A stretch of DNA of 64,000 bases from an uncultured Planctomycetota bacterium (GTDB lineage Bacteria > Planctomycetota > Planctomycetia > Gemmatales > Gemmataceae). Numbering within the stretch: position 1 is the stretch's first letter; each line of letters starts with the position of its first letter. The notes below the pieces were generated by a model, which saw only the letters and a list, made by a program, of their open reading frames with translations, was not told the origin of the DNA and searched no databases. The stretch covers positions 256,001-320,000 of the forward strand of contig CAWKHF010000001.1 in assembly GCA_963849325.1 (NCBI GenBank), written 5' to 3'. A program made the translations under genes and the position numbers. Of the stretch, positions 10,181 through 57,180 are shown one piece after another.

Positions 10181-10218
10181 AAGCCTGCCCCAAGACCGCC
10201 CACCCTAGCAGCCCATGT

Positions 10219-10259
10219 GACGATGAGTCCACGGACCATGAGTAAACGGACTATGTGTC
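10219..10259 (-). promoter_or_regulatory. C-box operator array (three 11-bp boxes with 4-bp spacers)
   Basis: Minus strand reads GACACATAGTC-CGTT-TACTCATGGTC-CGTG-GACTCATCGTC, matching the GACT-N3-AGTC C-box, about 40 bp upstream of the controller ATG. Confidence 0.75.
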
Positions 10260-10776
10260 ACACACCGGGAGCGGGGAATCTGAACCCGTCAATCTGGCGA
10301 TTTCCAAGAAAGTTGGGGCGAAAGCGCACTCACTCGCCGCTCGTCGGTCGCAGCCTCCCAGCCACGGGGTGACGTTCGCTACCGGCACGCCGATCTCGAA
10401 ATGGACCGCAGCCGTAGGCTGGATCTCGCCCCATCCCACGAGCCGACCCACGCCGCCATAAACCATTCCAGCCTCCGCACAGCGGTCGCGCTCTCGGCCG
10501 GGTTTCTCAGATGTGGGAAGTCCATCCCGTTTCCTTGCCACTTTCAGGAACCGTCCCGCGCCGGACGGTCCTAACGTAGCTGTTTTTCCCGGCTTTCGCC
10601 GCGACGACGCTTGGCACTTCGTTTGCCCTCTCTCTCCTCACGCGATACCGCACCCTGAAAGAGGTTGACGCATCCCCCGCGAGGGCTACAACGTCTCCCA
10701 GCGTGCCGCAGCTGAAATCCTTCACGGCGGTATCGCTGTATCCGAAGGAAAGCCGTATCCGGAGCGATGCTTCGTT

Positions 10777-11451
10777 ATGACAGATCCTACTCCCAATCCT
10801 CCTGGCGGCACGCCGCCGTCTCCTGATAAGCCCGAAACCGGCATCACGCCCAATCCGCCGCCGGCCGCGACGACGGCAGCGGTGACGCCCAAGCCGGCCG
10901 CGCCGCCGCCCAAGCCGGCGGCCAAGCCCGTCGCCAAAACCAAGGAGCGACGCGGCTTTCTCTACGCCATGTTCGGCACCTGGATCGGCCTGGCCTGGAC
11001 GACCATGACGGCCTCGTTCGGCCTGATGACGCTGGGCACCGTTCGCTTCCTCTTTCCCAACGTCCTGGCCGAGCCGCCCAGCAAGATCAAGGTCGGTTTC
11101 CCCGACAGCTACGAGGACGGCAAGGTCATCGAACGCTACAAGGACCAGCACGCCTGGATCGTCCGCCGCAAGGACGAGAAGTTCGGCGACATCATCTACG
11201 CCCTGAGCACCACCTGCACGCACCTCGGCTGCACGCCCAACTGGCTGGAGCGCGAACAGAAATTCAAATGCCCCTGCCACGGCAGCGGCTTCTACATCAG
11301 CGGCATCAACTTTGAAGGCCCCGCCCCGCGGCCGCTGGAACGCTGGGCCGTCAGCGTCGGCGACGACGGCCAGATCGTCGTCGATATGAGCAAGAAGTTC
11401 CAGCAAGAACGCGGCGAATGGAACAACCCCGAATCCTTCATCAAGGTGTAG
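10777..11451 (+). CDS. Rieske 2Fe-2S subunit of a cytochrome bc complex
   Basis: CTHLGC and CPCHGS boxes, GPAPRPL, Tat-like RRGFL followed by a TM helix. Confidence 0.95.
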   Translation: MTDPTPNPPGGTPPSPDKPETGITPNPPPAATTAAVTPKPAAPPPKPAAKPVAKTKERRGFLYAMFGTWIGLAWTTMTASFGLMTLGTVRFLFPNVLAEPPSKIKVGFPDSYEDGKVIERYKDQHAWIVRRKDEKFGDIIYALSTTCTHLGCTPNWLEREQKFKCPCHGSGFYISGINFEGPAPRPLERWAVSVGDDGQIVVDMSKKFQQERGEWNNPESFIKV

Positions 11452-11460
11452 GAGCCAGCT

Positions 11461-12234
11461 GTGAGCGTCGGTGATTTCATCCGTAATTCGCAGGTATGGA
11501 AGAGCATCTTCCGCCATCCGGCCCCGCGCGATCGGCGCAACCGCGTGGTGGTCATGCTCACCAACGTCTTCCTGCACCTGCATCCGGTGTCGGTGCGCAA
11601 GAGCGGCATCGCCCTGAGCTATACCTGGTGCATGGGCGGACTGACGTTCTTCATGTTCCTGGAGCTGACCGTCACCGGCGTGCTGCTGATGTTCTACTAT
11701 CGGCCGACGCTCGAACACGCTTACAACGACATCCTCATCCTCCGCGACGTGGCCACGCTCGGCATCCTCCGCGAACTGCATCGCTGGGGCGCACACGCCA
11801 TGGTCATCACGATCTGGCTGCACATGTATCGCGTCTTCCTGACCGGCAGTTACAAACCGCCCCGAGAATTCAACTGGGGGGTCGGCGTCATCTTGCTCGT
11901 CTTGACGCTGCTGTTGAGCTTCACCGGCTATCTGCTGCCGTGGGACCAACTGGCCATCTGGGCCATCACCGTCGGCAGCAACATGGCCCGCGCCACGCCG
12001 TTCCTCGGCCACGAGGGGCCGGGCGCCAGCTTCCTCAAAGTGGGGGATGTCTCGCTCATCCACTCCGGCTCGGACGCGCGCTTCATTCTGCTGGGCGGGC
12101 GCTTCGTCAGCGGCGAGACGCTGCTGCGCTTCTACGTGCTGCATTGCGTCGCCATTCCGTTGGCCGTCGCCGTGCTCATCGCCGTCCACTTCTGGCGCGT
12201 GCGCAAGGACGGCGGCATCAGCGGGCCGTTGTGA
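11461..12234 (+). CDS. Cytochrome b (b6-like N-terminal part)
   Basis: [58 protein letters not shown]. Confidence 0.95.
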
Positions 12235-12242
12235 GAATGACT

Positions 12243-12303
12243 CGTTTCGCCGCGACGCGCAGCGGAGCGCGAGCCGCGCTCCGCTGCGCGTCGCGGCGAA
12301 ACG
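12243..12303. repeat. REP-like palindrome family B (second copy at 27925-27978)
   Basis: GCCGCGACGCGCAGCGGAGCGCG ... CGCGCTCCGCTGCGCGTCGCGGC hairpin between genes. Confidence 0.85.
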
Positions 12304-12331
12304 GAAACTTTTGTTACCAGGGCGATCACCC

Positions 12332-13632
12332 ATGCATACCCTCGACCGAGGTTTACAAAACGGTCTGGCCGTCTATTACCTGCTGGTGGCCCTGCTCAAT
12401 TTCGGCTTCGCGGCCTACTGGTGGTACGGGGCCAAGAAGCCGGCCGCCGGCGCCGTCTGGGCCGCCGTCGGCGCTCTCTTCTTGATCCACAGCATCGCCT
12501 ATTTCGCGCACCTGGGCTGGCTTCTGCCCATCGGGGTGCGCGATGCCGTCGATGAGGCGACAGGTCCGGTCGTTTACACCACGTTGTCGATCGTCGCCTT
12601 CATCTTGCTGTTGTACTTCCGCAAGTTCTTCGTGCAGCCGCACGTCGCCTGGGCCATCCTTCAGCTCACGCTGCTTTTCGGCGGCTGGGCCATGACCGAC
12701 CCCAACTTCCGCGAGATCGTCGCCAAGGAAGACAACGTCCCCATCAGCATGCTCATCTTCTCGGTCGGCTTCTTCACCTGGGCCGCTCTCTATCGCGCCG
12801 TGCAGAACGACGAGCGCATCGCCCGCGGCGAGCCGGTGCTGGAGAAGGTCGAGGACGAAAAGGTGCTGGTCTGGCCCGACCTGGTTTACACCGAGCTGAT
12901 CGCCATGATTATCGCCACCTTCGTGCTGATCATCTGGTCCGTGCTGCTCAAGGCGCCGCTGGAGCAGCCGGCCACCAGCGCCAAGGCGCCCAATCCGTCG
13001 AAGGCGCCGTGGTACTTCCTCGGCCTGCAAGAAATGCTCGTCTACTACGATCCGTGGATGGCCGGCGTCGTGCTGCCGACCATGATTATCATTGGCCTGA
13101 TCGCCATTCCCTACATCGACTTCAACCGCCAGGGCAACGGCTATTTCTCCTTCGCCGAGCGCAAGTTCGCCGTGTCGATCTTCCTGTTCGGCTTCGTCGT
13201 CTTGTGGGTGACGCTGATCGTGCTGGGCACCTTCCTGCGCGGGCCGAACTGGAACTTCTTCGCGCCGTTTGAATACTGGGATCCGCACAAGGTCTTGCCG
13301 CTCAACAACGTCAACCTGTCGCAGTTGTTCTGGCTGAACATGCTGCATATTCCGCTGGAGGACTTCAAGGTCCGCTTCGGCAACTTCTTCGGTCCGATCC
13401 TCCGCGAGCTGCCCGGCATCATTCTGGTGCTGCTGTACCTGTTCGCCCTGCCGCCGCTGTTGGCTCGAACCGTGATGCGGCCCGTTCTTTATTCGGATGG
13501 GTTTTGTCCGCTTTATCACGCTGGTGACGCTGATGCAGTTCATGGCCGCGCTGCCGCATCAAGATGGTGCTGCGCTGGACCATGAACCTGAAGTACATCG
13601 TCGCCATCCCGGAAATCTTCTTCAACATCTAG
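12332..13632 (+). CDS. Cytochrome b subunit IV-like protein with extra TM helices (frameshifts near 13490-13560)
   Basis: VWPDLVYTE, APLEQPA, NPSKAPWYFLGLQE, PYID, GTFLRGPNW; C-terminus KMVLRWTMNLKYIVAIPEIFFNI ending at TAG 13632. Confidence 0.88.
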
Positions 13633-39863: not shown

Positions 39864-41588
<1,725 letters not shown>

Positions 41589-41737
41589 GCCGCCGGCAGC
41601 TTGACGGCGTGAGAACGCCGCCGCGCGACGAGGCGATGCCTTGTTCTCGCGGCGGCGTTCGCTTCCGCAATGCTTGCGAGATTGCGGAAAGCCTGGTAGG
41701 ATCACATCATCTGCTCGTTTGGCGGGAGACGAAGACC

Positions 41738-44600: not shown

Positions 44601-44625
44601 CGCCCGTAGCAGAGAGGATGAATGG

Positions 44626-46706
44626 ATGTGTGGTATCGCGGGGATCGTGGACCTATCGGGCGAGGGGCGGCCAGCCCCGACGACGCCCTCCGTGCCATGG
44701 CCGAGGCGATCGACCACCGCGGGCCGGACGAGGACGGCTTTCTGGAACGGCCCGGCCTGGCGTTCGCCTCGCGCCGCCTGAGCATCGTCGGCCTGGCCGA
44801 CGGCCGGCAGCCGATCCACAACGAGGACGGCTCCGTCTCCGTCGTCTTCAACGGCGAACTGTTCGACTATCCCGAGGGACGCGCCGAGCTGGAAGGGCGC
44901 GGCCACCGCTTCCCCACCCACTGCGACACCGAGCTGATTCCGCACCGCTGGGAAGACCACCAGGAAGACATCTTTCCCCACCTGCGCGGCCAGTTCGCCT
45001 TCGCCCTGTGGGACGCTCGGCTGCGCCGCGTCATCTTGGCCCGCGACCGCTTCGGCATCTGCCCGCTGTACTGGACACGGCAGACCGTGCAAGGCGGCGA
45101 ATGGCTGCTGTTCGCCTCGGAGATCAAGGCGCTGCTGGCCTCGGGTATGGTCGCGGCCCGGCCCGACCCGCGCGGCATCAATCACCTCTTCACCTTCTTC
45201 GCCCTGCCCGGCCCGGTCACCTGCTTCGAGGGCGTGCAACTGCTGCCCCCCGGCCATTACCTGCGCGTCCAGCTCGGCGCCGCCGGCGAGGCCGCTCGCG
45301 TCAGCGAGCGCATCTACTGGCAGATCGATTTCCCCGACCGGGGGCAGGAAGATTACTCGCGCGACGACAAGCAGCTCGCCGACGAGTTCGAGGAGGTGCT
45401 GATGGACGCGGTGACGCGCCGGCTGCGGGCCGACGTGCCGGTCGTGTCGTACCTGTCCGGCGGCGTCGATTCGAGCGTCGTGGTGGCCCTGGCCAGCCAT
45501 GTGCGCGGCACGCCGATCCCGACGTTCACCATCCGCATCACTCGGCCCGACCTCGACGAGACTGCCGAGGCCGCCCTGGTGGCCCGCCACGTCGGCGTCG
45601 AGCCGGTCGTCGTGGATTGCGGCCCCGACGAGGTGCTGGACAACTACCCGACCCTGATCCGCGCCGCCGAGGGGCCGGTGATCGATACCTCGTGCGCCGC
45701 CCTGCTGATGCTGGCCCGCGAGGTCCACCGCCGCGGCTACAAGGTGGCCCTGACCGGCGAAGGCGCCGACGAATGGCTGGCCGGCTATCCCTGGCACAAG
45801 GTCCACCGGCTGCTCGGCTGGCTCGACGTCGTTCCCGGCCTGCCGCTCAGCCAGATGGCGCGCCGCGCCTTCGTCCGCCTGACGGGGGCGCCGACTTTCT
45901 CCTGGACGTATGCACGGCGAGCGCAGGCGGCGGTCGGCGGACACAACGGCTGGCTGGACATCTACGGCCTGATGAGCATGTCCAAGCTGCGCTTCTTCAG
46001 CGTCGATGCTGCAAGTCGCCCAGGATCGCCCTCCTACGAGGACCTGGGCTTCGACCTCGATCGCATGCGCCGCTGGCATCCGCTCAACCGCGAGCTGGCC
46101 GTCGGCGCTCGCATCCAGCTGCCCGGCCTGCTGCTGGCCGCCAAGGGCGACCGCGTGGCGATGAACTCCTCGGTCGAGACGCGCTATCCGTTCCTCGACG
46201 AGGAGGTGTTCGATTTCCTCGCCCGCGTGCCGCCGCGCTGGAAGCTGCGCGGCCTGCGCGACAAGGTGCTGCTGCGCCGCGTGGCCGAGCGCTGGCTGCC
46301 GCGTCCATCGCCTGGCGGCGCAAGGCCATGTTCCGCGCTCCCTTCGACAGCTTCCACCTGGAGCACGCCCCGCGTTCGTCGACCAACTGCTCAGCCCCGA
46401 ATCGCTGCGGCGCACCGGCTATTTCGACCGGAGGCGGTCGAGCATTGGCGGACGGCCTTCCGCGACCTGCGGCGGCGGACGCCGCAGCGAGCGTCGGTCG
46501 AGATGGGCCTGGTCGGCGTGCTGGCCACGCAGCTGTGGCACCAGACGTTCATCGACGGCAGCCTGGCCGACCTGCCGTCGCTGGCTCACAAAAAGCGATC
46601 AGCGATCAGCGATCAGCGGTCAGCGATCAGCGGTCAGCAATCAGCCGTCGGGCAGGAAAACGGCAACGGTTCGCAGTCAACAAAGGTGCGTTTGGCTGAT
46701 CGCTGA
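44626..46706 (+). CDS. asnB: Asparagine synthase (glutamine-hydrolysing) family amidotransferase (frameshifted)
   Basis: MCGIAG, HRGPD, RRLSIV, FNGE, ARDRFGICPLY, YLSGGVDSS, LTGEGADE, DRVAMNSSVETRYPFLD. Confidence 0.92.
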
Positions 46707-46718
46707 TCGCTGATCGCT
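46596..46718. repeat. Heptamer arrays (GATCAGC)n with an inverted (GCTGATC)n arm
   Basis: CGATCAGCGATCAGCGATCAGCGGTCAGCGATCAGCGGTCAGC ... GCTGATCGCTGATCGCTGATCGCT at the 3' end of asnB. Confidence 0.8.
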
Positions 46719-46729
46719 TTGAGGGCAAC

Positions 46730-47852
46730 ATGGCGTCGTACTCGCTGGCAACCCTGTGGTACGAACGGCAGCGCTACCTGCCGGGCGTGCTGGCGGTGGC
46801 GTTCAGCGCCCTGCTCATCGCCTTGCAGTGCGGCCTGCTGCTGGGGTTGTTCTCGATCACGTCCATCCCCATCGACCACACCCGCGCCGACGTGTGGATG
46901 GGCGCTCCGCAGGTGCTGTCCGTCGATCTGGGCCGGCCGATCCGGAGACCGCCCTGGCCCGCATGGGCGTGCAGCCGGAGGTCGAGCGCTGCGAGATCTA
47001 CCTGCAAGGGTTCGCCTTCTGGTCCAAGCCCAGCGGCGGCAACGAGCTGTGCATGGTCATCGGCTCGCGTCTCAGCCCCGACTCGCTGGGCAAGATCGAT
47101 CAGCTGACGCCGGGGCAGTGCGGCCTGCTCGCCGAGGAAGGGACCGTCGTCATCGACGAGTCGGACGTGGACCGGCTGGGCGTCAAGGGCGTCGGCTCGG
47201 TGGCGGAGATCTCCGGTCATCCGGTTCGGGTCGTCGGCCTCACGCACGGACTCAAGAGCCTGGCCGGGCCCTACGTGTTCTGCTCGGTGCCGACGGCCCG
47301 GCAGCGGTTGCCGGTGCAGCCGGGCAGACGACGACCTACGTGCTGGGCCGCTGCCGCAATCCGGAGGACGCCCCGAAGGTGGTCGATCGTCTGCGGCAAT
47401 ACTCGGACGTGTCGGCGTTCACGGCCCGCGAGTTCTCACGGCGGACGCAACTGCACTGGTTGACCAAGACCAAGGCCGGCGTCGCCCTGGGCTACGCCGC
47501 GGCGCTGGGCCTGCTGGTCGGCGCCGTCGTCACCAGTCAGACGCTGTACGCCGCCACGGTGGCGTCGCTGCGCGAGTACGCCGTGCTGCGGGCGCTGGGC
47601 ATTCCGCGCTGGCGCATGGCGTTTATGGTGGTGTCTCAGTCGTTCTGGATTGGTATCATTGGCGTAGTGCTGGCGGTGCCGGCGGTGTACGGCCTGGCCT
47701 GGGCAGCCGACCACTTCATGGGCGTGCAATTGGCCCTGCCCTGGTGGTTGCAGACGGGAGCGGTCGCGGTGACGCTGGTCATGGCCCTGCTGTCGGGCCT
47801 GTTCGCCCTCCGTTCGCTGCGGCTGATCGAGCCGGCCATGCTGTTGCGTTAA
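46730..47852 (+). CDS. ABC exporter permease, FtsX/DevC-like (frameshifted)
   Basis: N-terminal TM, ADVWM, SQTLYAAT...REYAVLRALG, C-terminal TMs. Confidence 0.88.
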
Positions 47853-47875
47853 CGTCCTCGGAGGAACGGCTCGCG

Positions 47876-48616
47876 ATGATTGACGATTCGCTGTCAACGC
47901 CGGCCCTGCAAGGCGTCCACCTGTCGCGCAGCTTCGGCTCGGGCGAGACGAGAACGACCGTCCTGCACGACGTGTCGATCGAGTTGTTCAGCGGCCAGAT
48001 CGCGCTGCTGATGGGGCCGTCCGGCAGCGGCAAATCGACGTTGCTGGCCATCCTGTCGGGCCTGCTGCGGCCCGACGGCGGCCGGGTGCTGGCCCTGGGA
48101 CAGGACCTGTGGGCGATGTCCGACCAGGAACGCGAACGCTTCCGTCTGCGGCACTGCGGCTTCATCTTCCAGGGCTACAACCTGTTCGCCGCCCTGACGG
48201 CCCGGCAGCAGCTGGAGATGGTGGTCCGCTGGGGCGAGGGCGCCACGGCCGGCGATGCCCGCCGCCGTGCCGACGAGATGCTGGCCCTGCTGGGCCTGGC
48301 CAAGAAGTCCCATCTGCGGCCGTCCGAACTGTCCGGCGGCGAGAAGCAGCGCGTGGCCATCGGCCGCGCGCTCATCAAGGACCCGAACTTCTGCTTCGCC
48401 GACGAGCCGACCAGCGCCCTGGATTGGGCGCACGGCGAGCAGGTGATCGAACTGTTGCGCAACGCCGCCCACGACCGCGGCGCCACGGTCCTGGTCGTCG
48501 CCCACGACTCGCGCATCATCGAACACGTGGATCGCGTGGTACACATGGAAGACGGCCGTCTGCGGCGACAGGATGAACGAACGCCGCTCCTGGACAAGGT
48601 AAAGCAGGAGAGGTGA
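47876..48616 (+). CDS. ABC transporter ATP-binding protein (LolD/DevA-like)
   Basis: GPSGSGKST, LSGGEKQRVAIGRAL, ADEPT, VAHD. Confidence 0.95.
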   Translation: MIDDSLSTPALQGVHLSRSFGSGETRTTVLHDVSIELFSGQIALLMGPSGSGKSTLLAILSGLLRPDGGRVLALGQDLWAMSDQERERFRLRHCGFIFQGYNLFAALTARQQLEMVVRWGEGATAGDARRRADEMLALLGLAKKSHLRPSELSGGEKQRVAIGRALIKDPNFCFADEPTSALDWAHGEQVIELLRNAAHDRGATVLVVAHDSRIIEHVDRVVHMEDGRLRRQDERTPLLDKVKQER

Positions 48617-48618
48617 CC

Positions 48619-49781
48619 ATGAACCGGCAAGCCGTGGATTCTCCCTCCGCCCGAAATTCCCGCGAGGTGGACCTCATGGAATCAACCCATCCGTCCGCGC
48701 CGCCGCGGCACTGGCGGATCGCCCTGCCCGTCTCGCTGGGTGTCGTCCTGCTGTTGGCCTCGCTGGTGATCGCGGCCGTCAGTCTGCGTTCCCATGCCCA
48801 CGACAGCGCGTCGCCGTCGGACGCGACGCCGGCCCCGGCGGACAATCAGCGCTGGATGTCGCTGGGCTTGGTGTACGTCGAGGGTGGACTAACGAAGATT
48901 TACCCGCTCCAGCAAGGGCGAATCAAGAGCATCGAGGCCGTCGAGAACGAGCCGGTCGAGGCCGTGCGCCTCTGCTTCACCTGGAGGACACGATGCCGGC
49001 CCTGAAGTTGAGTCAGGCCCGGATCGCTCGGGATGCCGCCCGTGAGAAAGTGGTCGCGGCCGAGGCGAAGGTGCAGCAACTGGAGGAGCAAATCGCCGCC
49101 CAGCAAGAGGCCATCGCGGCCGCGATGGTGGACCTCCGCCGCGCCCGCTTCAATCGAGACCGGGAGAAGCGGTTCGAGAGCGACGTTGGGGGCAAGAGCA
49201 CAAGGGAGAGTTCCCAGACGGTTAAGGATCTCGACTTCCTCGTCGAGAAGGCCGAAGTGGGAGTACGGGCCGAGCAGAAGAAGCTCGCCGCCCTGCAAGC
49301 CGGTCGGGCCGAGGCGGAGTCCGGCGTCAAGCTGTATCGCATGGACGTCGAGGCCAAGAAGATCCAGGAGCGTGAGGCCCAGAAAGGCGTGGACGAGTGC
49401 GTCGTCCGTGCCCCTTACGCCGGCACGCCGCTGCGCGTACACGTCAGTGCCGGCGATGTGCTGGGCGCCAACCCTCATCAGCCGGCCATCGAGTTCGCCC
49501 CGAATCGGCCGCTGCTGGTGCGCGCCGAGGTCGAACAGGAGTTCGTCGGCCGCATCCACAAGGGCCAGGCCGTCACCATCGCCGACCACGTCACCGGCCA
49601 GGAATGCGCGCGCGGCACCGTGGCGAGCATTGCCCGCTGGTACGCCCCACGGCGTTCGTCTTCCTCTCAACTGATGCAGCTGGGCAACGACGTGCGGACC
49701 CTCGAATGCGTCATCAAGATCGACTCCACCGCGCAGGAGCTGCGCATCGGACAGCGCGTTCGCGTCGAGTTCCCGCAGTGA
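48619..49781 (+). CDS. HlyD/DevB-like membrane fusion protein (frameshift near 48960)
   Basis: One TM, coiled coil, VVRAPYAG, VRAEVEQEF, LRIGQRVRV. Confidence 0.88.
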
Positions 49782-49979: not shown

Positions 49980-50804
49980 ATGTTGCCGGCCATCGGCTAT
50001 TCCCTGCGTGAAGAGAATCGTCCCTGGATGGACGAAGCCGCCTGGGACGGTGTCGAGATTGACTTTCAGCGTGCCAGCAATCCGCTGCGACGGACGCCGT
50101 ATCTCGAAGGCTCGTCGTTCCGTTATGTCAGCCTGCACACGCTCGATCTCTCGGTCGCCAGCCCGGAACCGCCCGCTCCGGTTTACCTCGACGCCCTCCT
50201 GAGCGTGGCGCGGGAAAACAACGCCGTCGCCATCACCGATCATCTGGGCTTCACGCACGGCAAGCCGGGAGGGGCCAGCATCGGCCACGTCACCGCGCCG
50301 CCCTGCACGCCCGCCGCCCTGGATGCCGTTTGCCGGAACATCGACCACATTCAACGGCATTTCGGCGACGTGGCGTTTTACCTGGAGAACCTGGCTCATT
50401 TCTTTGTGTGGCACGGCTCGATGAGCGAGGCCGACTTTTTCGGCCAGGTGCTGGAGCGAACCGGCTGCGGTCTCCTGCTGGATGTCACCAACGCCTATGC
50501 CAACGCCCGGAACTTCGGACACGACGCGCGAGCGTTCCTTGACGGTGTGGTCCCCCGCGCTGGCCGCATGCAGATGCACCTGGCGGGCGGTTTCACCGAC
50601 GCTCGAACCGGCCGCTACGTGGATAGCCATTCGCAGCCGATCCCCGAGTCCGTGTGGGAGCTGTATCGCCACGCCCTCACGCTGGGACGAGGCAAGGTGG
50701 ACGCGGTTTTCATCGAACGCGACTGGAACGCTCCCGACGAGGCCGGCTGGCGTCAGGAGGTGCGACAAGCTCGGCGGATCGCTCGGGAAGTGGAGGCCTC
50801 GTGA
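49980..50804 (+). CDS. DUF692 family multinuclear non-heme iron oxidative enzyme (MNIO)
   Basis: Iron-ligand motifs in order: SLHTLDLS, TDHLGF, LENL, LLLDVTNAYANARN, HLAGG, VDSH, IERD. Confidence 0.93.
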   Translation: MLPAIGYSLREENRPWMDEAAWDGVEIDFQRASNPLRRTPYLEGSSFRYVSLHTLDLSVASPEPPAPVYLDALLSVARENNAVAITDHLGFTHGKPGGASIGHVTAPPCTPAALDAVCRNIDHIQRHFGDVAFYLENLAHFFVWHGSMSEADFFGQVLERTGCGLLLDVTNAYANARNFGHDARAFLDGVVPRAGRMQMHLAGGFTDARTGRYVDSHSQPIPESVWELYRHALTLGRGKVDAVFIERDWNAPDEAGWRQEVRQARRIAREVEAS

Positions 50805-51535
50805 TGAAAGCTCCCCAAGCGAGCGTGGGTTATCACGAGCAACTCCACGACTGGGTCGAGGCGCTGACGACGGGCGACATCCGCGCGGTGTGCGACGCCC
50901 TGGCCGAAGGAGAAGCCGACGACGTGCGCCGGTTCCTGGACAACAGCGTCGGCGAACGGCGCAAGCTGCTGCGGCAAGAACTGGCCTTGGTGGCCCTGGC
51001 ATTTGATGACTTTGACGACCTTGTTTGTGACTATATGCGAGCGGTGCCGCAGACGGCCTACGATCCCGCTTGCAGCGATCGACAGCGGTTCTTGTGCTGG
51101 CTGCGACGAGTCCGGCCGTTGACGGCCATGCAGGGCGATTTCGTCGCCTACCAGGAAGCGGAGTACGCCGTCGCGGCATTGGCCCGCACGCAGCGTCCGC
51201 GGCACCTGGCCTTTCAGGGGATGGCAACGAAGGCCCGGCAGCAGGCAGCACGGCTCGACGCGGACGTTACCCTGCGGCTCCATCTGAATCCCATCCGGAT
51301 CGGAACGCGCCTGGCCCTGCCCGGCCGCGATTTCGGCGAGGTACTGTTCTTCGCCGCCGGCGACCGCGTGGCGAGCGTCGGGCTGGATTCAAGGATCCGG
51401 GAACTCGTGGACCTGCTCGAACCAGGCCCGCGCACTCTGGAGGAATGCACGAGCCGACTACGTCCCGTCAGCCGGGAGGAGTTGGCAATCCGGTGCCGCG
51501 ACCTCGCCGACAAGGGACTTGTGGCTTTCGCGTGA
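50804..51535 (+). CDS. MNIO partner protein (DUF2063-like N-terminus, C-terminal RRE/winged-helix-like)
   Basis: TGATG overlap with the MNIO gene; FDDLVCDYMRAVP...DRQRFLCWL...DFVAYQEAEYA; C-terminal beta strands followed by ELVDLL..PRTLEE..CRDLADKGLV. Confidence 0.7.
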   Translation: MKAPQASVGYHEQLHDWVEALTTGDIRAVCDALAEGEADDVRRFLDNSVGERRKLLRQELALVALAFDDFDDLVCDYMRAVPQTAYDPACSDRQRFLCWLRRVRPLTAMQGDFVAYQEAEYAVAALARTQRPRHLAFQGMATKARQQAARLDADVTLRLHLNPIRIGTRLALPGRDFGEVLFFAAGDRVASVGLDSRIRELVDLLEPGPRTLEECTSRLRPVSREELAIRCRDLADKGLVAFA

Positions 51536-51694: not shown

Positions 51695-51898
51695 ATGTCC
51701 CGTATCGACATCATTCGTGCGTGGAAGGACGAGGCTTATCGGCAGGGTCTGAGCGAGGCCCAGCGCGCCGCCCTGCCGGCCAATCCGGCCGGCATGAGCG
51801 AGTTGACCGAGGCCGAGGCGGCCGCGGTCGAAGGCAAACTCAGCTCCGCCTGTTGCAGCACCTGTCATTGCAGGGCCGCCGTCGTGGCGGTTCGCTAA
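51695..51898 (+). CDS. RiPP precursor with mersacidin/lichenicidin-type class II lanthipeptide leader and Cys/Ser-rich core
   Basis: AAGGAGG RBS; leader DIIRAWKDEAYRQGLSEAQRAALPANPAG..ELTEAE...VEG; core KLSSACCSTCHCRAAVVAVR. Confidence 0.93.
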   Translation: MSRIDIIRAWKDEAYRQGLSEAQRAALPANPAGMSELTEAEAAAVEGKLSSACCSTCHCRAAVVAVR

Positions 51899-51984: not shown

Positions 51985-53583
51985 ATGGCCATGAACCCTT
52001 CATCTCCCGAACGCGGTGCCTTTGGGTTCCTGGAAGCGATCGAGCCATTGATCCGCCAGGGACGCCATCGTTTCCGCGACGAAGCGGAGGCGCTGGTCCG
52101 TCGCTATCCCGAGGCGCCCTTCGCCGTCTCCGCGATCGAGGAGACGTTGGCGACATCGCTCGAAGAGCAGCTCTTGACCGTACTCGGGCGCACCATGGTC
52201 CTGGAGCTGCAAGTGGCCCGCTTGCAGGGGTTGCTGTCCGGCGCGACCGCCGCGGAGCGTTTCGACAACTTCCTCTGTCGCTTGCGTCAGCCGGAGGTTG
52301 CCGCCGCTCTGCTCGAAGAATATCCCGTTCTGGCAAATCTGGTGACGCAAGGCATCGACGACTGGACCGCCTTCAGTCTGGAGTTCCTCCGACATCTGTG
52401 CGCGGACTGGCAGGCCATCCGCTCGTCGTTCCGGCCGGACGCCGAGCCTGGTCCGGTGATCGCCGTCGAGTTCGCCGGCGACCGCCACCGTGGCGGTCGA
52501 TCGGTGCTGATCGTGACCTTCCGCTCCGGTTGGCGATTGGTGTACAAGCCCAAGCCCCTGGCCGTCGAAGTGCATTTCCAACGACTGCTGGCCTGGCTCA
52601 ATGCGCACGGCGCTCACCCCGCCTTTCCGATGACGCCCGTCCTGGACCGAGGCGGACACGGCTGGGTCGCCTTCGTCGCCGCCTACGGCTGCAGCACCGA
52701 AGCGGAGATTCAGCGTTTCTACCAGCGGCAGGGCGCCTACCTGGCGCTTCTGTATGGACTGAGGGCAACCGACTTTCACCTGGAGAATGTGATCGCCGCG
52801 GGTGAGCAGCCGGTGCCGGTGGACTTGGAAGCTCTCTTCCATCACGGCCCGGCCGACGCGGCTGGCCAGCTGCACGCCGATTCCGTCCGAGGCGTGCGTT
52901 TTCTGCCGCACCGTAGCCTCGTTGCGGACACCGGCTCGTTCGTCGATTTCAGCTCCCTGGGAGCGACGGCCGGCCAGCTCTCGCCTTACGAGACACCCTG
53001 CTGGGAGGGGATGGGCACCGACGAGATGCGTGTGGTCCCGCGACGAATGGAGATGCCCGCCGCGCGCAATCGGCCGACCCTTCGCGGTCAAGAGATCAAC
53101 CTTTTCGATTATCGAGAAGAGTTGATCCACGGCTTCCAGGCCACGTATCGGATGCTGGAGACGCATCGCGAGGAACTGCTCGACGCGGGCGGCCCCATCG
53201 ACTCCTTTGCCCGGGACGAGGTGCGTTTTCTCGCGCGAACGACGCAGTGTTACGCCTTGCTGCTCCGTCAGAGCTATCATCCGGACTTGCTGCGCGACGG
53301 CCCGGCACGCAGCCGTTTCTTTCGGCAACTCGACCAGCGGGTGGCGCAATCGCCCTGGTTCGCGCGCCTCCGGGACGCCGAGGATGCCGACCTGTTGCGG
53401 CAGGACATTCCGCTGTTCACCACCCGTCCCGCTTCACGCGATCTGTGGACCAGTTCGGGAGAGCGGATCGTCGCGTTCTTCGAGCAAACCGGCGTGGAAC
53501 TGGTGCGCCAGCGTCTGCGACAACTGGGACCAGCGGACCTTCAACAGCAACTCACGATCATCCGGGCAACCTTCGCTCAGTGA
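51985..53583 (+). CDS. LanM-type dehydratase domain (DUF4135) without a LanC cyclase domain
   Basis: EYPVL, GDRHRGGRSV, VYKPK, TDFHLENVIA, VDLEALFH, RFLARTTQCY, HPDLL, QDIPLF; ends at 532 aa with TGA TGA. Confidence 0.92.
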   Translation: MAMNPSSPERGAFGFLEAIEPLIRQGRHRFRDEAEALVRRYPEAPFAVSAIEETLATSLEEQLLTVLGRTMVLELQVARLQGLLSGATAAERFDNFLCRLRQPEVAAALLEEYPVLANLVTQGIDDWTAFSLEFLRHLCADWQAIRSSFRPDAEPGPVIAVEFAGDRHRGGRSVLIVTFRSGWRLVYKPKPLAVEVHFQRLLAWLNAHGAHPAFPMTPVLDRGGHGWVAFVAAYGCSTEAEIQRFYQRQGAYLALLYGLRATDFHLENVIAAGEQPVPVDLEALFHHGPADAAGQLHADSVRGVRFLPHRSLVADTGSFVDFSSLGATAGQLSPYETPCWEGMGTDEMRVVPRRMEMPAARNRPTLRGQEINLFDYREELIHGFQATYRMLETHREELLDAGGPIDSFARDEVRFLARTTQCYALLLRQSYHPDLLRDGPARSRFFRQLDQRVAQSPWFARLRDAEDADLLRQDIPLFTTRPASRDLWTSSGERIVAFFEQTGVELVRQRLRQLGPADLQQQLTIIRATFAQ

Positions 53584-53632
53584 TGACGAGCGGTCCCCGA
53601 TCAGCTTGTCGTTGGGATATCGAGGAACAACC

Positions 53633-55918
53633 ATGTGGCGACGCTACGTATGGGTTCGGCAGAACGATCAGAGCGACTGTGGCGCGGCGTCGCTGGCCAC
53701 GGTCGCTCTGCACTATCGCCGAAGCATTGGACTGGAACAAGTGCGCGACTGGACCGGCACCGATCGCATCGGCGCGACGCTGCTCGGCCTGCTGCGCGGG
53801 GCCGAGAAGCTCGGCTTCGCCAGCAAGGCCGTCAAGGCGCCGTATGAGGCGCTGGCCCATCTGCCTCTGCCGGCCATCGCTCATCTCCGGACGACGGATA
53901 ACAGCGGCCATTTCCTTGTTCTGCACAAAGTAAGCAAGGACGCCGTCGTGGTGGCCGACCCGGCGCGCGGCGTCGAGAAGCGCTCGCGCACCGACTTTTG
54001 CCGCGATTGGACCGGCCATTTGCTGATGCTCGTGCCGCAGACCGATCTGCACGGCCCGCGCGGCCCGACCCCGCTGCCTCCGTGGCGGCGTTTCCTGGGC
54101 CTGCTCCGCTCGCACACCGGCATCCTCACCGAAGCCATCTTCTGCGCCCTGCTCATGACGCTGCTGGGCGTGTCCACGTCCTACTTCGTCCAGCATCTGG
54201 TGGACTCGGTCCTCGTCCGTCACGAGAGACGACTGCTCAACGCCCTGGGCATCGGCATGGTGCTGATCGTGGTGTTCCGCACGCTGTTCGCCCTGTTGCG
54301 GCAGTACCTGCTCGCGCACGTCGCCCGCAAGGTGGACCTCGCCGTCATCGCCGGTTACAGCCGGCATTTGCTCGGCCTGCCCATGCGTTTCTTCGAGTCG
54401 CGTCGCGTCGGCGAGATCCTGTCGCGGGCCATCGACACGGCCAAGGTGCGCGAAGCCATCAGCGGCACCACGACCACCGCCGTGGTAGACGGCGTGCTGG
54501 TGGTGCTGCTGCTGGGCGTGCTGTGGATGTACGACTTCCGGCTGGCCCTGACGGCGACGGCGTTCGTGCCCGTGCTGTTTGTGGCCGCCCTCCTGCTGCA
54601 ACCGGCCACGTTGAAGCAGTCATGGCAGGCCATGGAGAACTGGTCGCAACTGTCGGCCCACCTGATTGAGAACGTCGGCGCCGTGCAGACCATCAAGGCG
54701 TTCGGCGCCGAGCGGGCCCGAGCCGAGGAAGGCGATCGACACCTGGTCGGCTTCGCCCAGGCGAACTTCACCCTCCAGAAATTCGGTCTGAGCATGAACG
54801 CCCTGAGCCTGTTTCTGACGGCCCTGGCCGGCATCATCATCTTGTGGTACGGCGGCAACCGCGTCATGGACGGCGCGCTGACCATTGGCCAGTTGATGTT
54901 CTTTTACTCGCTGCTGGTCTACTTGCTGGAACCGCTGAACCGCCTGGCGGGCGTCAACCTGAAGTTGCAGGAAGCCTTTGTCGCCGTGGATCGGCTCTAT
55001 CAGGTACTCGATCTGGAGCTGGAACAGCCGGACGGAGCGAGCAAAACGACCTTCGCCGGACTACGCGACGGCATCGAGCTGCGCGACGTGACCTTCCGCT
55101 ATGGCAGTCGGACCAACGTGCTGGACCAGATCAACCTGCGCATCCCCGCCGGCAAGACGGTGGCCGTGGTCGGCGAGAGCGGCTCCGGTAAATCCACGCT
55201 TCTGAATCTGCTGATGGGCTTCCACTCGCCGACCGAAGGCGGCATTCTCGTGGACGGCGTCGATCTGCGCGACTTCGACCTGGATTCGTGGCGGGGCCGG
55301 ATGGGATTGGTTTCGCAGGAGCCGTTTATCTTCAATGGCACGGTGCGCAACAACATCGCCCTGGGCCGGCCGGAGGCGAGCGTCGCGGAGGTGATCGAGG
55401 CGGCGCGGGCGGCGGGACTCGCCGAGTTCATCGCCCACCTGCCGCAGCGCTACGACACGCTCATCGGCGAGCGCGGCGCCAACCTGTCCGGCGGTCAGCG
55501 GCAGCGTCTGGCCATCGCCCGCGCGCTGCTGCGGAAACCGGATGTCCTGCTGTTCGATGAGGCCACCAGCCATCTGGACACGGCCACCGAGCAGGCCATT
55601 CAGGAAAACCTGCATACGGTGTTGAGCGGCCGGACGGTGATCCTGGTGGCGCATCGTCTGAGCACGATCAAGGACGCCGACCTCATCTACGTGCTGCACC
55701 AGGGCCGCATCGCCGAGCAGGGCACGCATCGGCAACTGCTAGCCCAGCAAGGACTGTATAGCCGGCTGTGCCGCAAGCAGACCGGCGCGGACGAGGAATC
55801 ATCCAGGGCCGGAGAGAACGGCGTCGCGCCGGTCGAGACCGCGGGCGCGACGCCGCTCTCCCGGATGGACAGTGCGAGAAACGGTAAGACCCCACGGGAG
55901 ACCATTCGTCATGCGTGA
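53633..55918 (+). CDS. Peptidase C39-containing ABC transporter (PCAT/LanT-type)
   Basis: QNDQSDCGAA (Cys), GHFLVL (His), VADPARG (Asp); TM domain; GESGSGKST, LSGGQRQR, FDEATS; GAGGA RBS. Confidence 0.95.
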   Translation: MWRRYVWVRQNDQSDCGAASLATVALHYRRSIGLEQVRDWTGTDRIGATLLGLLRGAEKLGFASKAVKAPYEALAHLPLPAIAHLRTTDNSGHFLVLHKVSKDAVVVADPARGVEKRSRTDFCRDWTGHLLMLVPQTDLHGPRGPTPLPPWRRFLGLLRSHTGILTEAIFCALLMTLLGVSTSYFVQHLVDSVLVRHERRLLNALGIGMVLIVVFRTLFALLRQYLLAHVARKVDLAVIAGYSRHLLGLPMRFFESRRVGEILSRAIDTAKVREAISGTTTTAVVDGVLVVLLLGVLWMYDFRLALTATAFVPVLFVAALLLQPATLKQSWQAMENWSQLSAHLIENVGAVQTIKAFGAERARAEEGDRHLVGFAQANFTLQKFGLSMNALSLFLTALAGIIILWYGGNRVMDGALTIGQLMFFYSLLVYLLEPLNRLAGVNLKLQEAFVAVDRLYQVLDLELEQPDGASKTTFAGLRDGIELRDVTFRYGSRTNVLDQINLRIPAGKTVAVVGESGSGKSTLLNLLMGFHSPTEGGILVDGVDLRDFDLDSWRGRMGLVSQEPFIFNGTVRNNIALGRPEASVAEVIEAARAAGLAEFIAHLPQRYDTLIGERGANLSGGQRQRLAIARALLRKPDVLLFDEATSHLDTATEQAIQENLHTVLSGRTVILVAHRLSTIKDADLIYVLHQGRIAEQGTHRQLLAQQGLYSRLCRKQTGADEESSRAGENGVAPVETAGATPLSRMDSARNGKTPRETIRHA

Positions 55919-57180
55919 AGCCGTCATGGTCGATCTGCGGGATTGCACGGAGTTCCGTCAGACGTTGCTGGCTAAGCCGCCGCGCTTTCTGCATGGCGTG
56001 GTCCTGTTGCTGGCCGGCCTGCTGGCCACGGCGCTGATCTGGGCCGCTGTCGCCCGCGCCAACCTCGTCGTCCGCGCCCAAGGCCGTGTGCGGCCCGTGA
56101 CCTCGCCCAAGAAGGTTTTCACCGCCGGGGCCGGGACGATGCCGCGCTCCAGCGGCGGGCGCGTCGTGGCCGTCTACTTCCACGTAGGCGACCAGGTGCA
56201 TCGGGGCGATCTGCTGATCCAGCTGGATACGGAGTCGCTGGGCAATGAAATCACCCGGCGAAAGCGAACGATTCAGGCGGGCGAGGAGGAACTGTCCCGG
56301 CTCGACCGCCTGAAGGACATGCTGGAGAGACAAAGTACGGCGACCCGCGCGAAGTGCGCAGTCCGAGCTGACCCAGGCGACGGCCGAGGTACGGCAAGCG
56401 AGCGAGCGGCGCGTCGTGGATGTCGAGCTGGCTCGCTTGGAATGGGAAGCGGCGGAGGACGAGCTGCGCCGCACCAAGCAGTTGGCGGCGAACAATGCCA
56501 CGACGGTCGCGGATCTGGTCAAGGCACGGAATCGTCTGCGCGAGGCGCAGGAGAAACTCCGCAAGGCGCGCCTATCGGTGGAGGATAGCAAGGTTGAGGT
56601 CATGAAGCGTGCTTTGGAACTGAGCGAGCGCGACGCGGCGTTGAAGCGCGAAGAACTGGAACTGAAACGGGTGAGCAAACGGGGCGAGGTCGAGGCCGCC
56701 CGCCTCGAGTTGGCCAACCTGGAGCTGGAGCGCAAGCAAGCGGAGCTGCGTTCGCCACTGACCGGCATTGTCACGAGCGGCGACGTGAAGATTGGCGACC
56801 TGCTCGAAGCGGGCAAGTCCGTGGTGGAGATCGCCGAGCAGCACGGTTTCCACTTCGAGGCGGAGGTGTCGAGCACCGAGGTGGCCCATTTGCGCGTGGG
56901 CATGCCGGCACGGATCAAGCTCGATGCCTACGATTATCAGCAGTACGGCACGTTATCGGGGACGGTGTGTTTCATCTCGCCGGACTCCGGCGTGCGTCAA
57001 GGCCAGGGAAACGCCGTCTACGTGGTGAAGATCGTCTGTGACGGCGAGGAGGTCGGGCGCGAAGGAGCACGCGGCAAGGTCAAGCTCGGCATGGCGGGAC
57101 AGGTGGAGATCGTGACGGAGCAGGAGAGCATTCTCTCGCTGTTGCTGCGGCACATACGCCAGAGCATCAGCCTGGGATGA
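55911..57180 (+). CDS. HlyD family secretion adaptor (frameshift near 56360)
   Basis: One TM, VRAQGRVRP, GDQVHRGDLL, LRSPLTG, KLDAYDYQQYGTLSGTV..ISPDS, KLGMAGQVEI. Confidence 0.9.

What the first reader, a model, noticed from the sequence alone, without database searches (positions are those of the whole stretch)
51985..53632. LanM lacks its cyclase domain, and this is not a frameshift artefact
Seen: the ORF is unbroken for 532 aa, ends in two tandem stops (TGATGA), and the transporter starts 50 nt later with its own RBS, leaving no room for a LanC domain. No LanC gene appears elsewhere in the window. The kinase motifs (YKPK, DxHxEN, DLE) and the phosphate-elimination motif (RxxxRxTxxY) are present, which points to an active enzyme. 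Established: stand-alone LanM-type dehydratases exist, for example PoyF in polytheonamide biosynthesis.
Basis: partly seen in the sequence, partly recalled or inferred. Interest (0 to 1): 0.78.

Follow-up and report, generated by a model that had tools for sequence, protein, structure and literature searches.

The report
Cyclase-less LanM dehydratase beside an MNIO
A planctomycete peptide-antibiotic-type gene cluster carries a lanthipeptide synthetase that has naturally and stably lost its ring-forming half and is teamed instead with an iron oxidase that acts on cysteines, which points to an undescribed kind of modified peptide.

Summary
ORF 51985-53583 (532 aa) is a complete LanM-type dehydratase domain. 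It covers positions 2-519 of the 932-position LanM model, keeps all nine CylM catalytic residues and ends in TGATGA. A C39 ABC exporter starts 50 nt later. No LanC-like sequence was found in the window or in the 8.16-Mb assembly.

It is not an artefact. Three other assemblies end at the same boundary: two congeners and one species of another Gemmataceae genus. dN/dS against the 83%-identical orthologue is 0.24. On a dehydratase-only tree, these proteins and metagenomic forms with only a ligand-less half LanC form one clade (SH-aLRT 98) inside full-length LanMs.

The cluster is MNIO, a TglI/DUF2063-like partner, a precursor, the LanM N-domain, a C39-ABC and HlyD. The precursor has a canonical LanA-type leader that ends in GK instead of GG, and a Cys/His-rich core (CCSTCHC).

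My reading is inferred. The enzyme dehydrates Ser/Thr while the MNIO consumes the cysteines, which makes the cyclase superfluous.

Stand-alone LanM dehydratases are known (PoyF). Seven literature searches found no paper on the MNIO pairing.

Caveats: the product is unknown, the HlyD gene carries a 1-nt frameshift, and the assembly shows indel errors.

The parts
49980..50804 (+). MNIO (multinuclear non-haem iron oxidative enzyme), 274 aa
   Evidence: PF05114 MbnB_TglH_ChrH E 3.2e-48, 164.7 bits against a cut-off of 25. Nearest NCBIfam models are BufB at 139.6 bits (cut-off 310) and HvfB at 114 bits (cut-off 360), both below cut-off. 92% identical in G009 and 74% in G537. 413 relatives at E<=1e-10.
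50804..51535 (+). MNIO partner protein, 243 aa: helical N-domain plus C-terminal RRE-like fold
   Evidence: No Pfam or NCBIfam hit. AF2 model has pLDDT 82. VIA-align gives 3dee_A (NGO1945) Z 13.2 over 182 aligned residues and TglI 8hci_C Z 12.7 over 213 aligned, then RRE domains at Z 6-9 for residues about 143-243. The start at 50804 is inferred from the alignment with orthologues.
51695..51898 (+). precursor peptide, 67 aa: LanA-type leader ending VEGK, core LSSACCSTCHCRAAVVAVR
   Evidence: TIGR03898 mersacidin/lichenicidin-type E 2.4e-19, 69 bits against a cut-off of 23.5, residues 5-47. The leader aligns with LanA peptides of full-length-LanM clusters, which end in GG. It belongs to a subfamily of 22 of 67 related peptides with Cys/His-rich cores.
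51985..53583 (+). LanM-type dehydratase domain only, 532 aa (the finding)
   Evidence: AF2 pLDDT 91.6 and pTM 0.91. Foldseek gives LicM2 6st5 TMq 0.82 and CylM 5dzt TMq 0.75. dN/dS 0.24 against G009.
53584..53632 (+). second stop codon (53584-53586) and 49-nt spacer with GAGGA at 53622-53626; no room for a cyclase domain
   Evidence: Sequence read.
53633..55918 (+). C39-peptidase ABC exporter (LanT-type), 761 aa
   Evidence: Peptidase_C39 6.6e-33, ABC_membrane 4.8e-43, ABC_tran 6.8e-36. 90% identical in G009. dN/dS 0.10.
55872..57180 (+). HlyD-family adaptor, split into two frames by a 1-nt insertion near 56359
   Evidence: The G009 orthologue is a single 480-aa ORF. Its residues 1-207 match frame 3 and residues 207-480 match frame 1 of the window. 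The DNA alignment shows one extra base at about 56359. HlyD_3 and Biotin_lipoyl_2 hits.

Best explanation
The gene encodes a natural, stably inherited stand-alone LanM-type Ser/Thr dehydratase. It is an ATP/Mg-dependent kinase that also eliminates the phosphate, and it has no cyclase.

It recognises the conserved LanA-type leader of the adjacent 67-aa precursor and converts Ser/Thr in the core (SS..CCSTCHC) to dehydroalanine/dehydrobutyrine. The neighbouring MNIO, guided by its TglI/DUF2063-like RRE-bearing partner, oxidises the core cysteines. The cysteines are therefore not available for thioether rings. That makes a LanC domain useless or harmful, which explains its loss across the whole MNIO-linked lineage. 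The C39-ABC/HlyD system would then cleave the leader and export the product.

Shown here:
- domain content and intact catalytic residues;
- a conserved truncation point;
- purifying selection;
- monophyly of the cyclase-less and half-cyclase forms;
- co-location with the MNIO and its partner;
- leader homology and a Cys/His/Ser-Thr-rich core family.

Inferred only:
- that both enzymes act on the same core;
- the order in which they act;
- the chemistry of the MNIO step;
- the absence of lanthionine in the product.
For: Domain and residues
- Complete dehydratase domain with no LanC part.
- D166, H168, K188, D263, H265, N268, D280, R414 and T420 correspond to CylM D252, H254, K274, D347, H349, N352, D364, R506 and T512. 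Mutagenesis of those CylM residues abolishes or weakens phosphorylation or elimination (PMC4550811, passages).
- The protein ends at about CylM 621, and CylM 1-625 alone dehydrates CylLS (same paper).
- The AF2 model is confident up to the last helix, residues 516-531, and superposes on LicM2 and CylM.

Conservation of the truncated form
- Same end in G009, G006 and G537.
- 9 of 10 clade members in alignment A2 keep all nine residues. The exception is G006 (D166N), whose cluster is decayed.
- dN/dS is 0.24 for the dehydratase, against 0.15 for the MNIO, 0.29 for the partner and 0.10 for the ABC exporter.
- Dehydratase-only tree of 54 rows: an 11-row clade with SH-aLRT 98 holds every MNIO-linked and half-tail form and no row with a full LanC. 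The all-column tree of 63 rows gives a 14-row clade with support 97.
- Half tails of 207-213 aa keep the first part of LanC but lack the CHG motifs seen in the full domain of P0004.

No cyclase available in trans
- No LanC in G000, G009 or G006.

Precursor and MNIO
- The leader is homologous to the LanA peptides of full-length relatives.
- 22 of 67 related peptides form a subfamily. Of these 22, 21 have at least 2 Cys, 22 have His and 22 have Ser/Thr.
- Members of the same MNIO family without a LanM sit beside Cys-repeat peptides, so Cys is the likely MNIO target.
Against: - No product, no RNA data and no biochemistry.
- The HlyD adaptor is frameshifted in this window.
- G006 shows that the cluster can decay: its MNIO is reduced to about 30 codons, and it has no precursor and no exporter.
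- The MNIO family also occurs without a LanM. L020, L021 and L022 have MNIO and partner but no LanM; L021 and L022 have 10 kb on each side, while L020 is a 2.9-kb contig. The pairing is therefore facultative.
- With four Cys and four Ser/Thr in the core, spontaneous thia-Michael addition after dehydration cannot be excluded.
- The link between the MNIO and the half-LanC forms (P0053, P0043, P0110, P0084) rests only on equal contig lengths and source labels. Their contigs could not be fetched.
- G537 has a separate full-length LanM elsewhere.
- The genome's marker completeness is 84.7%.
Confidence: 0.6

Rival explanations
1. The enzyme dehydrates Ser/Thr and the four cysteines then add non-enzymatically to the dehydro residues. 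The product would still be a lanthipeptide-like thioether peptide, and the MNIO would do some other tailoring.
For: The core has 4 Cys and 4 Ser/Thr in close spacing. The leader and exporter are of lanthipeptide type. That Cys adds spontaneously to dehydroalanine is general chemistry, recalled and not tested here.
Against: Loss or degeneration of the cyclase is confined to one clade, whose members with known context sit beside an MNIO. The His and the CC doublets conserved in the cores are not features of the canonical LanA cores aligned. LanM-less members of the same MNIO family sit beside Cys-repeat peptides, which points to Cys as the MNIO substrate.
Confidence: 0.15
2. The cluster in this genome is decaying, and the truncated LanM is a leftover with no present function.
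For: There is a 1-nt frameshift in the HlyD adaptor. In congener G006 the MNIO is deleted, the precursor and exporter are missing, and the LanM carries D166N.
Against: The window's MNIO, partner, precursor, LanM-N and ABC genes are all intact. dN/dS against G009 is 0.10-0.29. All catalytic residues are kept. groEL in the same window shows two frame changes with conserved sequence in each frame, so the HlyD shift may be an assembly indel error.
Confidence: 0.1
3. The protein acts only as a Ser/Thr kinase, leaving phosphorylated residues as reported for EmbM in phospeptin, or only as a leader-binding scaffold for the MNIO.
For: A LanM-like enzyme without a cyclase domain that phosphorylates but does not eliminate is described for EmbM (PMC9505594, passage).
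Against: The four residues needed for phosphate elimination in CylM (D252, H254, R506, T512) are all kept here as D166, H168, R414 and T420. According to the passage read, EmbM's precursor lacks Cys, whereas this one has four.
Confidence: 0.07
4. A cyclase encoded elsewhere acts in trans, and an ordinary class II lanthipeptide is made.
For: The assembly is not closed (14 contigs, 84.7% marker completeness). G537 carries a LanC domain in a second LanM.
Against: PF05147 gave 0 matches at E<=1 in G000, and 0 at E<=0.01 in G009 (97% complete) and G006. The LanC in G537 is the C-terminal part of another full LanM with its own exporter.
Confidence: 0.03

Closest known systems
Class II lanthipeptide synthetases LanM (CylM, LicM2, ProcM-like cyanobacterial enzymes)
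   Same: The dehydratase domain is homologous: LicM2 E 1.5e-75, CylM E 1.1e-28, and 47-51% identity to cyanobacterial and Chloroflexota LanMs. The catalytic residues, the leader type of the substrate and the C39-ABC exporter are the same.
   Different: There is no LanC-like zinc cyclase domain. The leader ends in GK rather than GG. The core is Cys/His-rich, and an MNIO with its partner is encoded in the operon.
PoyF (polytheonamide) and EmbM (phospeptin): stand-alone LanM-like enzymes
   Same: Both are LanM-type dehydratase or kinase domains without a cyclase domain that act in non-lanthipeptide RiPP pathways (PMC9505594, passages).
   Different: PoyF acts on one Thr of an NHLP-leader proteusin. 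EmbM only phosphorylates, and its substrate has no Cys. Here the substrate has a LanA-type leader and four Cys, and the partner enzyme is an MNIO. Sequence relatedness to PoyF and EmbM was not tested, because no sequence was on hand.
LanMbC / CcaM of the dehydrazoles
   Same: A DUF4135 dehydratase works without making lanthionine, beside an enzyme that first consumes the Cys/Ser/Thr (there a YcaO). Its cyclase domain has no zinc ligands, as in the half-LanC relatives seen here (PMC10676384, passages).
   Different: CcaM needs its fused class III cyclase domain for activity and is leader-independent. The protein here has no C-terminal domain at all and sits beside an MNIO, not a YcaO.
MNIO RiPP systems (MbnBC, TglHI, BufBC, HvfBC)
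   Same: A PF05114 enzyme, a TglI/DUF2063-like partner with an RRE fold, and a Cys-containing precursor.
   Different: Scores are below the equivalog cut-offs of BufB and HvfB. The precursor has a lanthipeptide leader and no signal peptide. A LanM dehydratase and a C39 exporter are added. The 2025 survey of MNIO clusters (PMC12452194) did not contain the terms DUF4135, PF13575 or Planctomycet, and mentions lanthipeptides only in its reference list (term searches; its supplements were not read).

Membership tests
LanM, class II lanthipeptide synthetase (TIGR03897) | N-terminal DUF4135 dehydratase domain with kinase and elimination residues | tested here: met
   PF13575 E 2.1e-120. Nine of nine CylM catalytic residues are kept.
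LanM, class II lanthipeptide synthetase (TIGR03897) | C-terminal LanC-like zinc-dependent cyclase domain in the same polypeptide | tested here: not met
   The model is matched only at positions 2-519 of 932. There is no PF05147 hit. A stop is followed by a 49-nt spacer. tblastn found no remnant.
LanM, class II lanthipeptide synthetase (TIGR03897) | LanA substrate with a leader and a Ser/Thr + Cys core | tested here: met
   TIGR03898 at 69 bits against a cut-off of 23.5. The core has 4 Cys and 4 Ser/Thr.
LanM, class II lanthipeptide synthetase (TIGR03897) | Product contains lanthionine or methyllanthionine | not testable with these tools
   This needs mass spectrometry or NMR of the product.
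Stand-alone LanM-type dehydratases (PoyF-like) | DUF4135 domain alone, with no cyclase in the protein or the genome | tested here: met
Stand-alone LanM-type dehydratases (PoyF-like) | Proteusin context: NHLP leader, radical SAM epimerases and methyltransferases | tested here: not met
   The NHLP leader model scores only 16.8 bits against a cut-off of 50.9. Neighbours are an MNIO, its partner and an ABC exporter. Not every ORF in the window was scanned for radical SAM genes.
LanMbC (CcaM-type) | DUF4135 fused to a zinc-less class III-type cyclase domain, with a YcaO partner | tested here: not met
   No C-terminal domain. No YcaO among the 11 cluster proteins scanned.
MNIO RiPP maturation system | PF05114 enzyme above the gathering score | tested here: met
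   164.7 bits against a cut-off of 25.
MNIO RiPP maturation system | Partner protein of TglI/MbnC/DUF2063 type | tested here: met
   Met by fold only: 3dee_A Z 13.2 and TglI 8hci_C Z 12.7. There is no sequence-family hit. That 3dee belongs to DUF2063 is recalled.
Bufferin (BufB) or HvfB equivalogs | Score above the NCBIfam equivalog cut-off | tested here: not met
   139.6 against 310, and 114 against 360.

The most novel reading that the evidence does not exclude
This locus belongs to an undescribed RiPP class of Planctomycetota. In it, a lanthipeptide-type leader delivers a Cys/His-rich core to two enzymes at once: an MNIO that turns cysteines into oxidised, metal-binding or cross-linking groups, and a LanM dehydratase that has shed its cyclase. 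The product would be a dehydroamino-acid-bearing metallophore, or a peptide with a new MNIO-made link to Dha/Dhb, rather than a lanthipeptide. The cyclase would have been lost, in steps from full to ligand-less half to none, because it competed for the same cysteines.
Probability: 0.4. Interest if true: 0.85.

Novelty: new variant of a known kind. Interest (0 to 1): 0.68.

Why it matters
This would be a natural example of a class II lanthipeptide synthetase being taken apart by evolution and re-used as a pure dehydratase beside an MNIO. It includes an apparent intermediate stage, a half LanC without zinc ligands, within the same clade.

It offers a compact, leader-dependent dehydratase of 532 aa for peptide engineering. 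It also defines a genome-mining rule: LanA-type leader + EAEAxxVEG[K/R/G] + CC..C.H core + MNIO. That rule picks out peptides which automated annotation currently labels 'mersacidin/lichenicidin family type 2 lantibiotic' but which probably are not lantibiotics.

It also makes a mechanistic question testable: how do two RiPP enzymes that compete for neighbouring residues share one leader?

Tried and rejected
- Literature. Seven full-text searches were run: MNIO+LanM; DUF692+lanthipeptide+dehydratase; multinuclear/class II lanthipeptide/cyclase domain; PoyF/LanM/dehydratase domain; MNIO+dehydroalanine; MNIO+lanthipeptide; MbnB+LanM. They gave no paper on an MNIO paired with a LanM-type dehydratase. 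Only listings were seen for most hits, and subscription journals are not covered.
- Metagenome scan with an MNIO alignment. 80 loci were kept, and only 6 reached 49% identity or more. Of these, only L018 carried the LanM-N, and L018 has the same sequence as G009's contig. The scan therefore added no new independent hybrid locus.
- Search for the half-LanC type (P0053) in 398 genomes of the order and family of G060. It gave 6 matches, all at 48% identity or less and mostly with open frames of 1020-1096 aa. None is a close relative, so the genomic context of the half-LanC forms stays unverified.
- Phylum sample. 5 of 400 other genomes have DUF4135. Four of them have open frames of 990-1138 aa, and the fifth has only contig-end fragments. 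No further truncated form was found there.
- Sequencing runs. No RNA holder was listed.
- Foldseek on the partner model gave no match at E<=0.001. The VIA-align wide search was used instead.
- The search of earlier findings returned nothing for this place.
- Complex prediction was not used, because enzyme-substrate pairs are poor cases for it.
- Many of the 'PF13575-only' hits have short or Pro/Arg/Ser-rich tails. They sit next to full-length sisters on the tree, so I treat them as fragments or frameshifts and not as further stand-alone dehydratases.
Full report
**1. The observation**

ORF 51985-53583 (+) is open for 532 codons and ends in TGA TGA (53581-53586). An ATG at 53633, preceded by GAGGA at 53622-53626, opens a 761-aa exporter with Peptidase_C39, ABC_membrane and ABC_tran domains.

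The ORF matches PF13575/DUF4135 end to end (E 2.1e-120, profile positions 1-377 of 378). It matches the LanM model TIGR03897 only at positions 2-519 of 932 (E 1.7e-159). So exactly the cyclase half is absent.

A LanC domain taken from a 52%-identical full-length relative (P0004) and two half-LanC tails were run by tblastn against all six frames of the window. They found nothing better than E 0.009, and that hit lies inside the asparagine-synthase gene.

PF05147 found nothing at E<=1 in the whole assembly, which is 8.16 Mb in 14 contigs with marker completeness 84.7%. DUF4135 occurs once in the assembly.

**2. Is the enzyme intact?**

phmmer against PDB sequences aligns residues 55-529 with LicM2 residues 89-570 (E 1.5e-75) and residues 57-522 with CylM residues 143-611 (E 1.1e-28).

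Reading the CylM alignment gives these equivalents:

| CylM | This protein |
|---|---|
| D252 | D166 |
| H254 | H168 |
| K274 | K188 |
| D347 | D263 |
| H349 | H265 |
| N352 | N268 |
| D364 | D280 |
| R506 | R414 |
| T512 | T420 |

I checked these positions on the translated ORF. The CylM paper shows that these residues are needed for phosphorylation or for phosphate elimination. It also shows that CylM residues 1-625 alone dehydrate CylLS efficiently (PMC4550811, passages read). The protein here stops at about CylM 621, the boundary used in that experiment.

An AlphaFold2 model built on a 46-row alignment has mean pLDDT 91.6 and pTM 0.91, with a confident last helix at 516-531. Its best structural matches are LicM2 (TMq 0.82) and CylM (TMq 0.75), followed by PI3-kinase-type folds.

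**3. Is it an artefact or a recent accident?**

This assembly does contain frame errors.
- groEL (39954-41600) changes frame twice while staying recognisably GroEL in each frame.
- The HlyD adaptor downstream of the exporter has one extra base near 56359 relative to its orthologue.

An open frame alone therefore proves little here. The decisive points are these.
- There is no cyclase-coding DNA in any frame.
- Independent assemblies show the same end.

| Genome | Relationship | Identity | ORF | Cluster |
|---|---|---|---|---|
| G009 | same genus | 83% | 534 aa | same cluster, two precursors |
| G006 | same genus | 59% | 502 aa | decayed |
| G537 | another genus of the family | 53% | 645 aa | same order of genes, two precursors |

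G537's extra length is N-terminal, and only 15 residues follow the domain.

In the family search, 6 of 252 Gemmataceae genomes had any match. The two others (G475, G024) are full-length LanMs. In a phylum sample, 5 of 400 other genomes have DUF4135. Four of them have open frames of 990-1138 aa, and the fifth has only contig-end fragments.

The nearest relatives outside the family are cyanobacterial and Chloroflexota LanMs at 47-51% identity, each followed in frame by a LanC domain.

NG86 dN/dS between the window and G009 is 0.24 for the dehydratase. For comparison it is 0.15 for the MNIO, 0.29 for the partner, 0.21 for the precursor and 0.10 for the ABC exporter.

**4. The lineage**

Among the 120 listed relatives of 292-931 aa (219 at E<=1e-20), many are fragments. 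One group of about 780-860 aa, however, has a tail of 207-213 residues. The tail aligns only with the first roughly 140 residues of LanC, has 1-3 Cys and lacks the CHG motifs present in the full domain of P0004.

Five LanM-like hits share contig length and source label with five hits of the MNIO search:

| LanM-like hit | MNIO hit | Contig length | LanM form |
|---|---|---|---|
| P0006 | P0126 | 32371 | no tail |
| P0053 | P0154 | 31350 | half LanC |
| P0084 | P0170 | 179429 | 135-aa tail, no LanC hit |
| P0043 | P0164 | 27914 | half LanC |
| P0110 | P0198 | 149739 | half LanC |

. I confirmed the first pair directly as the G537 locus. The others remain indirect.

I built a tree on dehydratase columns only. 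It had 54 rows:
- 11 cyclase-less or half-tail forms;
- 14 short-tailed hits;
- 23 hits with LanC;
- 5 genome loci;
- 1 outgroup.

The roughly 75 other listed hits were not used. The method was LG+G4 with a quick search. The tree puts all 11 cyclase-less or half-tail forms, and nothing else, in one clade with SH-aLRT 98. An all-column tree of 63 rows agrees, with support 97. The short-tailed hits outside the clade pair with full-length sisters and look like fragments.

Nine of the 10 clade members in alignment A2 keep all nine catalytic residues. The exception is G006 (D166N), the genome in which the MNIO is reduced to about 30 codons and the precursor and exporter are gone.

**5. The cluster**

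Upstream lie three genes.
- An MNIO at 49980-50804 (PF05114, 164.7 bits). It scores below the BufB and HvfB equivalog cut-offs.
- A 243-aa protein with no family hit. Its model (pLDDT 82) matches NGO1945 (3dee_A, Z 13.2) and the TglH partner TglI (8hci_C, Z 12.7). Its C-terminal 100 residues match many RiPP recognition elements at Z 6-9.
- A 67-aa precursor at 51695-51898.

The precursor's leader hits the mersacidin/lichenicidin model (69 bits against a cut-off of 23.5). It aligns along its whole length with the LanA peptides that sit beside the full-length relatives. Those end in GG, whereas the MNIO-linked ones end in VEGK or VDGK.

The cores are LSSACCSTCHCRAAVVAVR here, very similar ones in G009, and ..AICSSCHGCGG.. 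in G537.

A protein search with the precursor gave 67 peptides. By a regular expression, 22 of them share the leader end EAEAxxV[E/D]G. Of those 22:
- 21 have at least 2 Cys;
- 19 have a CC doublet;
- all 22 have His;
- all 22 have Ser/Thr;
- the residue before the core is K in 11, R in 3, G in 6, Q in 1 and T in 1.

Two further peptides (P0260, P0263) look alike by eye. Six of these peptides share contig lengths with MNIO hits.

The MNIO family is large, with 413 hits at E<=1e-10, and it is not always linked to a LanM. Three metagenomic loci with 54-58% identical MNIO and partner have no LanM; L021 and L022 carry 10-kb flanks, and L020 is a 2.9-kb contig. Two of them have Cys-repeat peptides (CCRCCR.., CRxCRxC..) just upstream of the MNIO instead.

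The asparagine synthase and the MacB-like ABC genes upstream in the window are not conserved in G009. I do not count them as part of the cluster.

**6. Mechanism**

What is shown is the anatomy described above. The rest is inferred.
- The dehydratase binds the LanA-type leader, as its full-length relatives do, and makes Dha/Dhb in the core.
- The MNIO, guided by its RRE-bearing partner, oxidises the cysteines.
- With the thiols consumed, a cyclase has no substrate or would compete for it. This accounts for the stepwise loss seen in the clade.
- The C39 exporter removes the leader, perhaps after GK.

The logic resembles the dehydrazoles. There a DUF4135 enzyme with a zinc-less cyclase domain dehydrates only after a YcaO has used the neighbouring residues, and no lanthionine is formed (PMC10676384, passages). 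That enzyme, however, needs its cyclase domain, and this one has none.

The invariant His, Asp, Glu and Asn columns of the MNIO alignment look like the metal ligands of MbnB. That is recalled and was not tested.

The conserved Cys and His suggest metal binding, as in bufferins and methanobactins. This is also inference.

**7. Comparison and novelty**

Stand-alone LanM-type enzymes are known. PoyF dehydrates one Thr in polytheonamide biosynthesis, and EmbM only phosphorylates (PMC9505594, passages). MNIO systems are known.

What I could not find in seven full-text searches, or by term searches in the 2025 MNIO survey (PMC12452194; supplements not read), is any of the following:
- an MNIO paired with a LanM-type dehydratase;
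- a LanM clade with a half LanC;
- this precursor family.

I therefore file it as a new variant of a known kind. It is not a member of LanM proper, because the cyclase feature was tested and not met.

**8. Verdict**

The main uncertainties are:
- the chemistry of the product;
- whether the HlyD frameshift is real;
- the indirect evidence for the half-LanC forms' context.

Noticed in passing
window 55689-57180: The HlyD-family adaptor of the exporter is split between two frames by one extra base near 56359, relative to the single 480-aa ORF of G009. This is either a real pseudogene or an assembly indel.
   Followed up: partly
window 39954-41600: groEL changes frame twice, near 40800 and near 41420, while each segment stays GroEL-like. 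This suggests indel errors in the assembly and bears on how far any frameshift in this window can be trusted.
   Followed up: partly
L008 (G006:C339) 10217-12700: In congener G006 the cluster is decayed. Only about 30 codons of the MNIO are left, fused next to the partner gene. There is no precursor and no exporter, and the LanM-N carries D166N.
   Followed up: partly
L020 49-324; L022 9698-9889: LanM-less members of the same MNIO family have small ORFs upstream with a different leader (..RELxxLRT..) and Cys-repeat cores (CCRCCR, CRxCRxC). These are probably another uncharacterised MNIO precursor family of Planctomycetota.
   Followed up: no
window 51830-51845 and precursors of L007, L102: The double-glycine site of canonical relatives (xGG) is replaced by EGK/DGK in the MNIO-linked precursors, while the C39 domain of the exporter keeps its QxxxCG motif. 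How the leader is cleaved is open. EGK also recalls the EGKCG repeats of oxazolin precursors (PMC12452194), which may be coincidence.
   Followed up: no
window 51985 (N-terminus of the ORF): The protein lacks the roughly 100-120 residue N-terminal extension present in most of its relatives, including G537's orthologue. The open frame allows only 19 more codons upstream (551-aa open frame against the 532-aa ORF).
   Followed up: no
L009 (G024:C1091) 50-2794: The full-length LanM of G024 has one in-frame TAA between the dehydratase and cyclase parts. It is either a broken gene or a sequencing error.
   Followed up: no
L104 (G537:C317) 8094-9466: G537 also carries the C-terminal part of a separate full-length LanM, cut by a contig end, with its own C39 ABC exporters. 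Canonical and cyclase-less systems therefore coexist in one genome.
   Followed up: partly
window 44622-49781: A glutamine-dependent asparagine synthase and a MacB-type FtsX/ABC/HlyD set lie just upstream of the MNIO but are not conserved in G009's cluster. A role in immunity or amidation is possible but unsupported.
   Followed up: no
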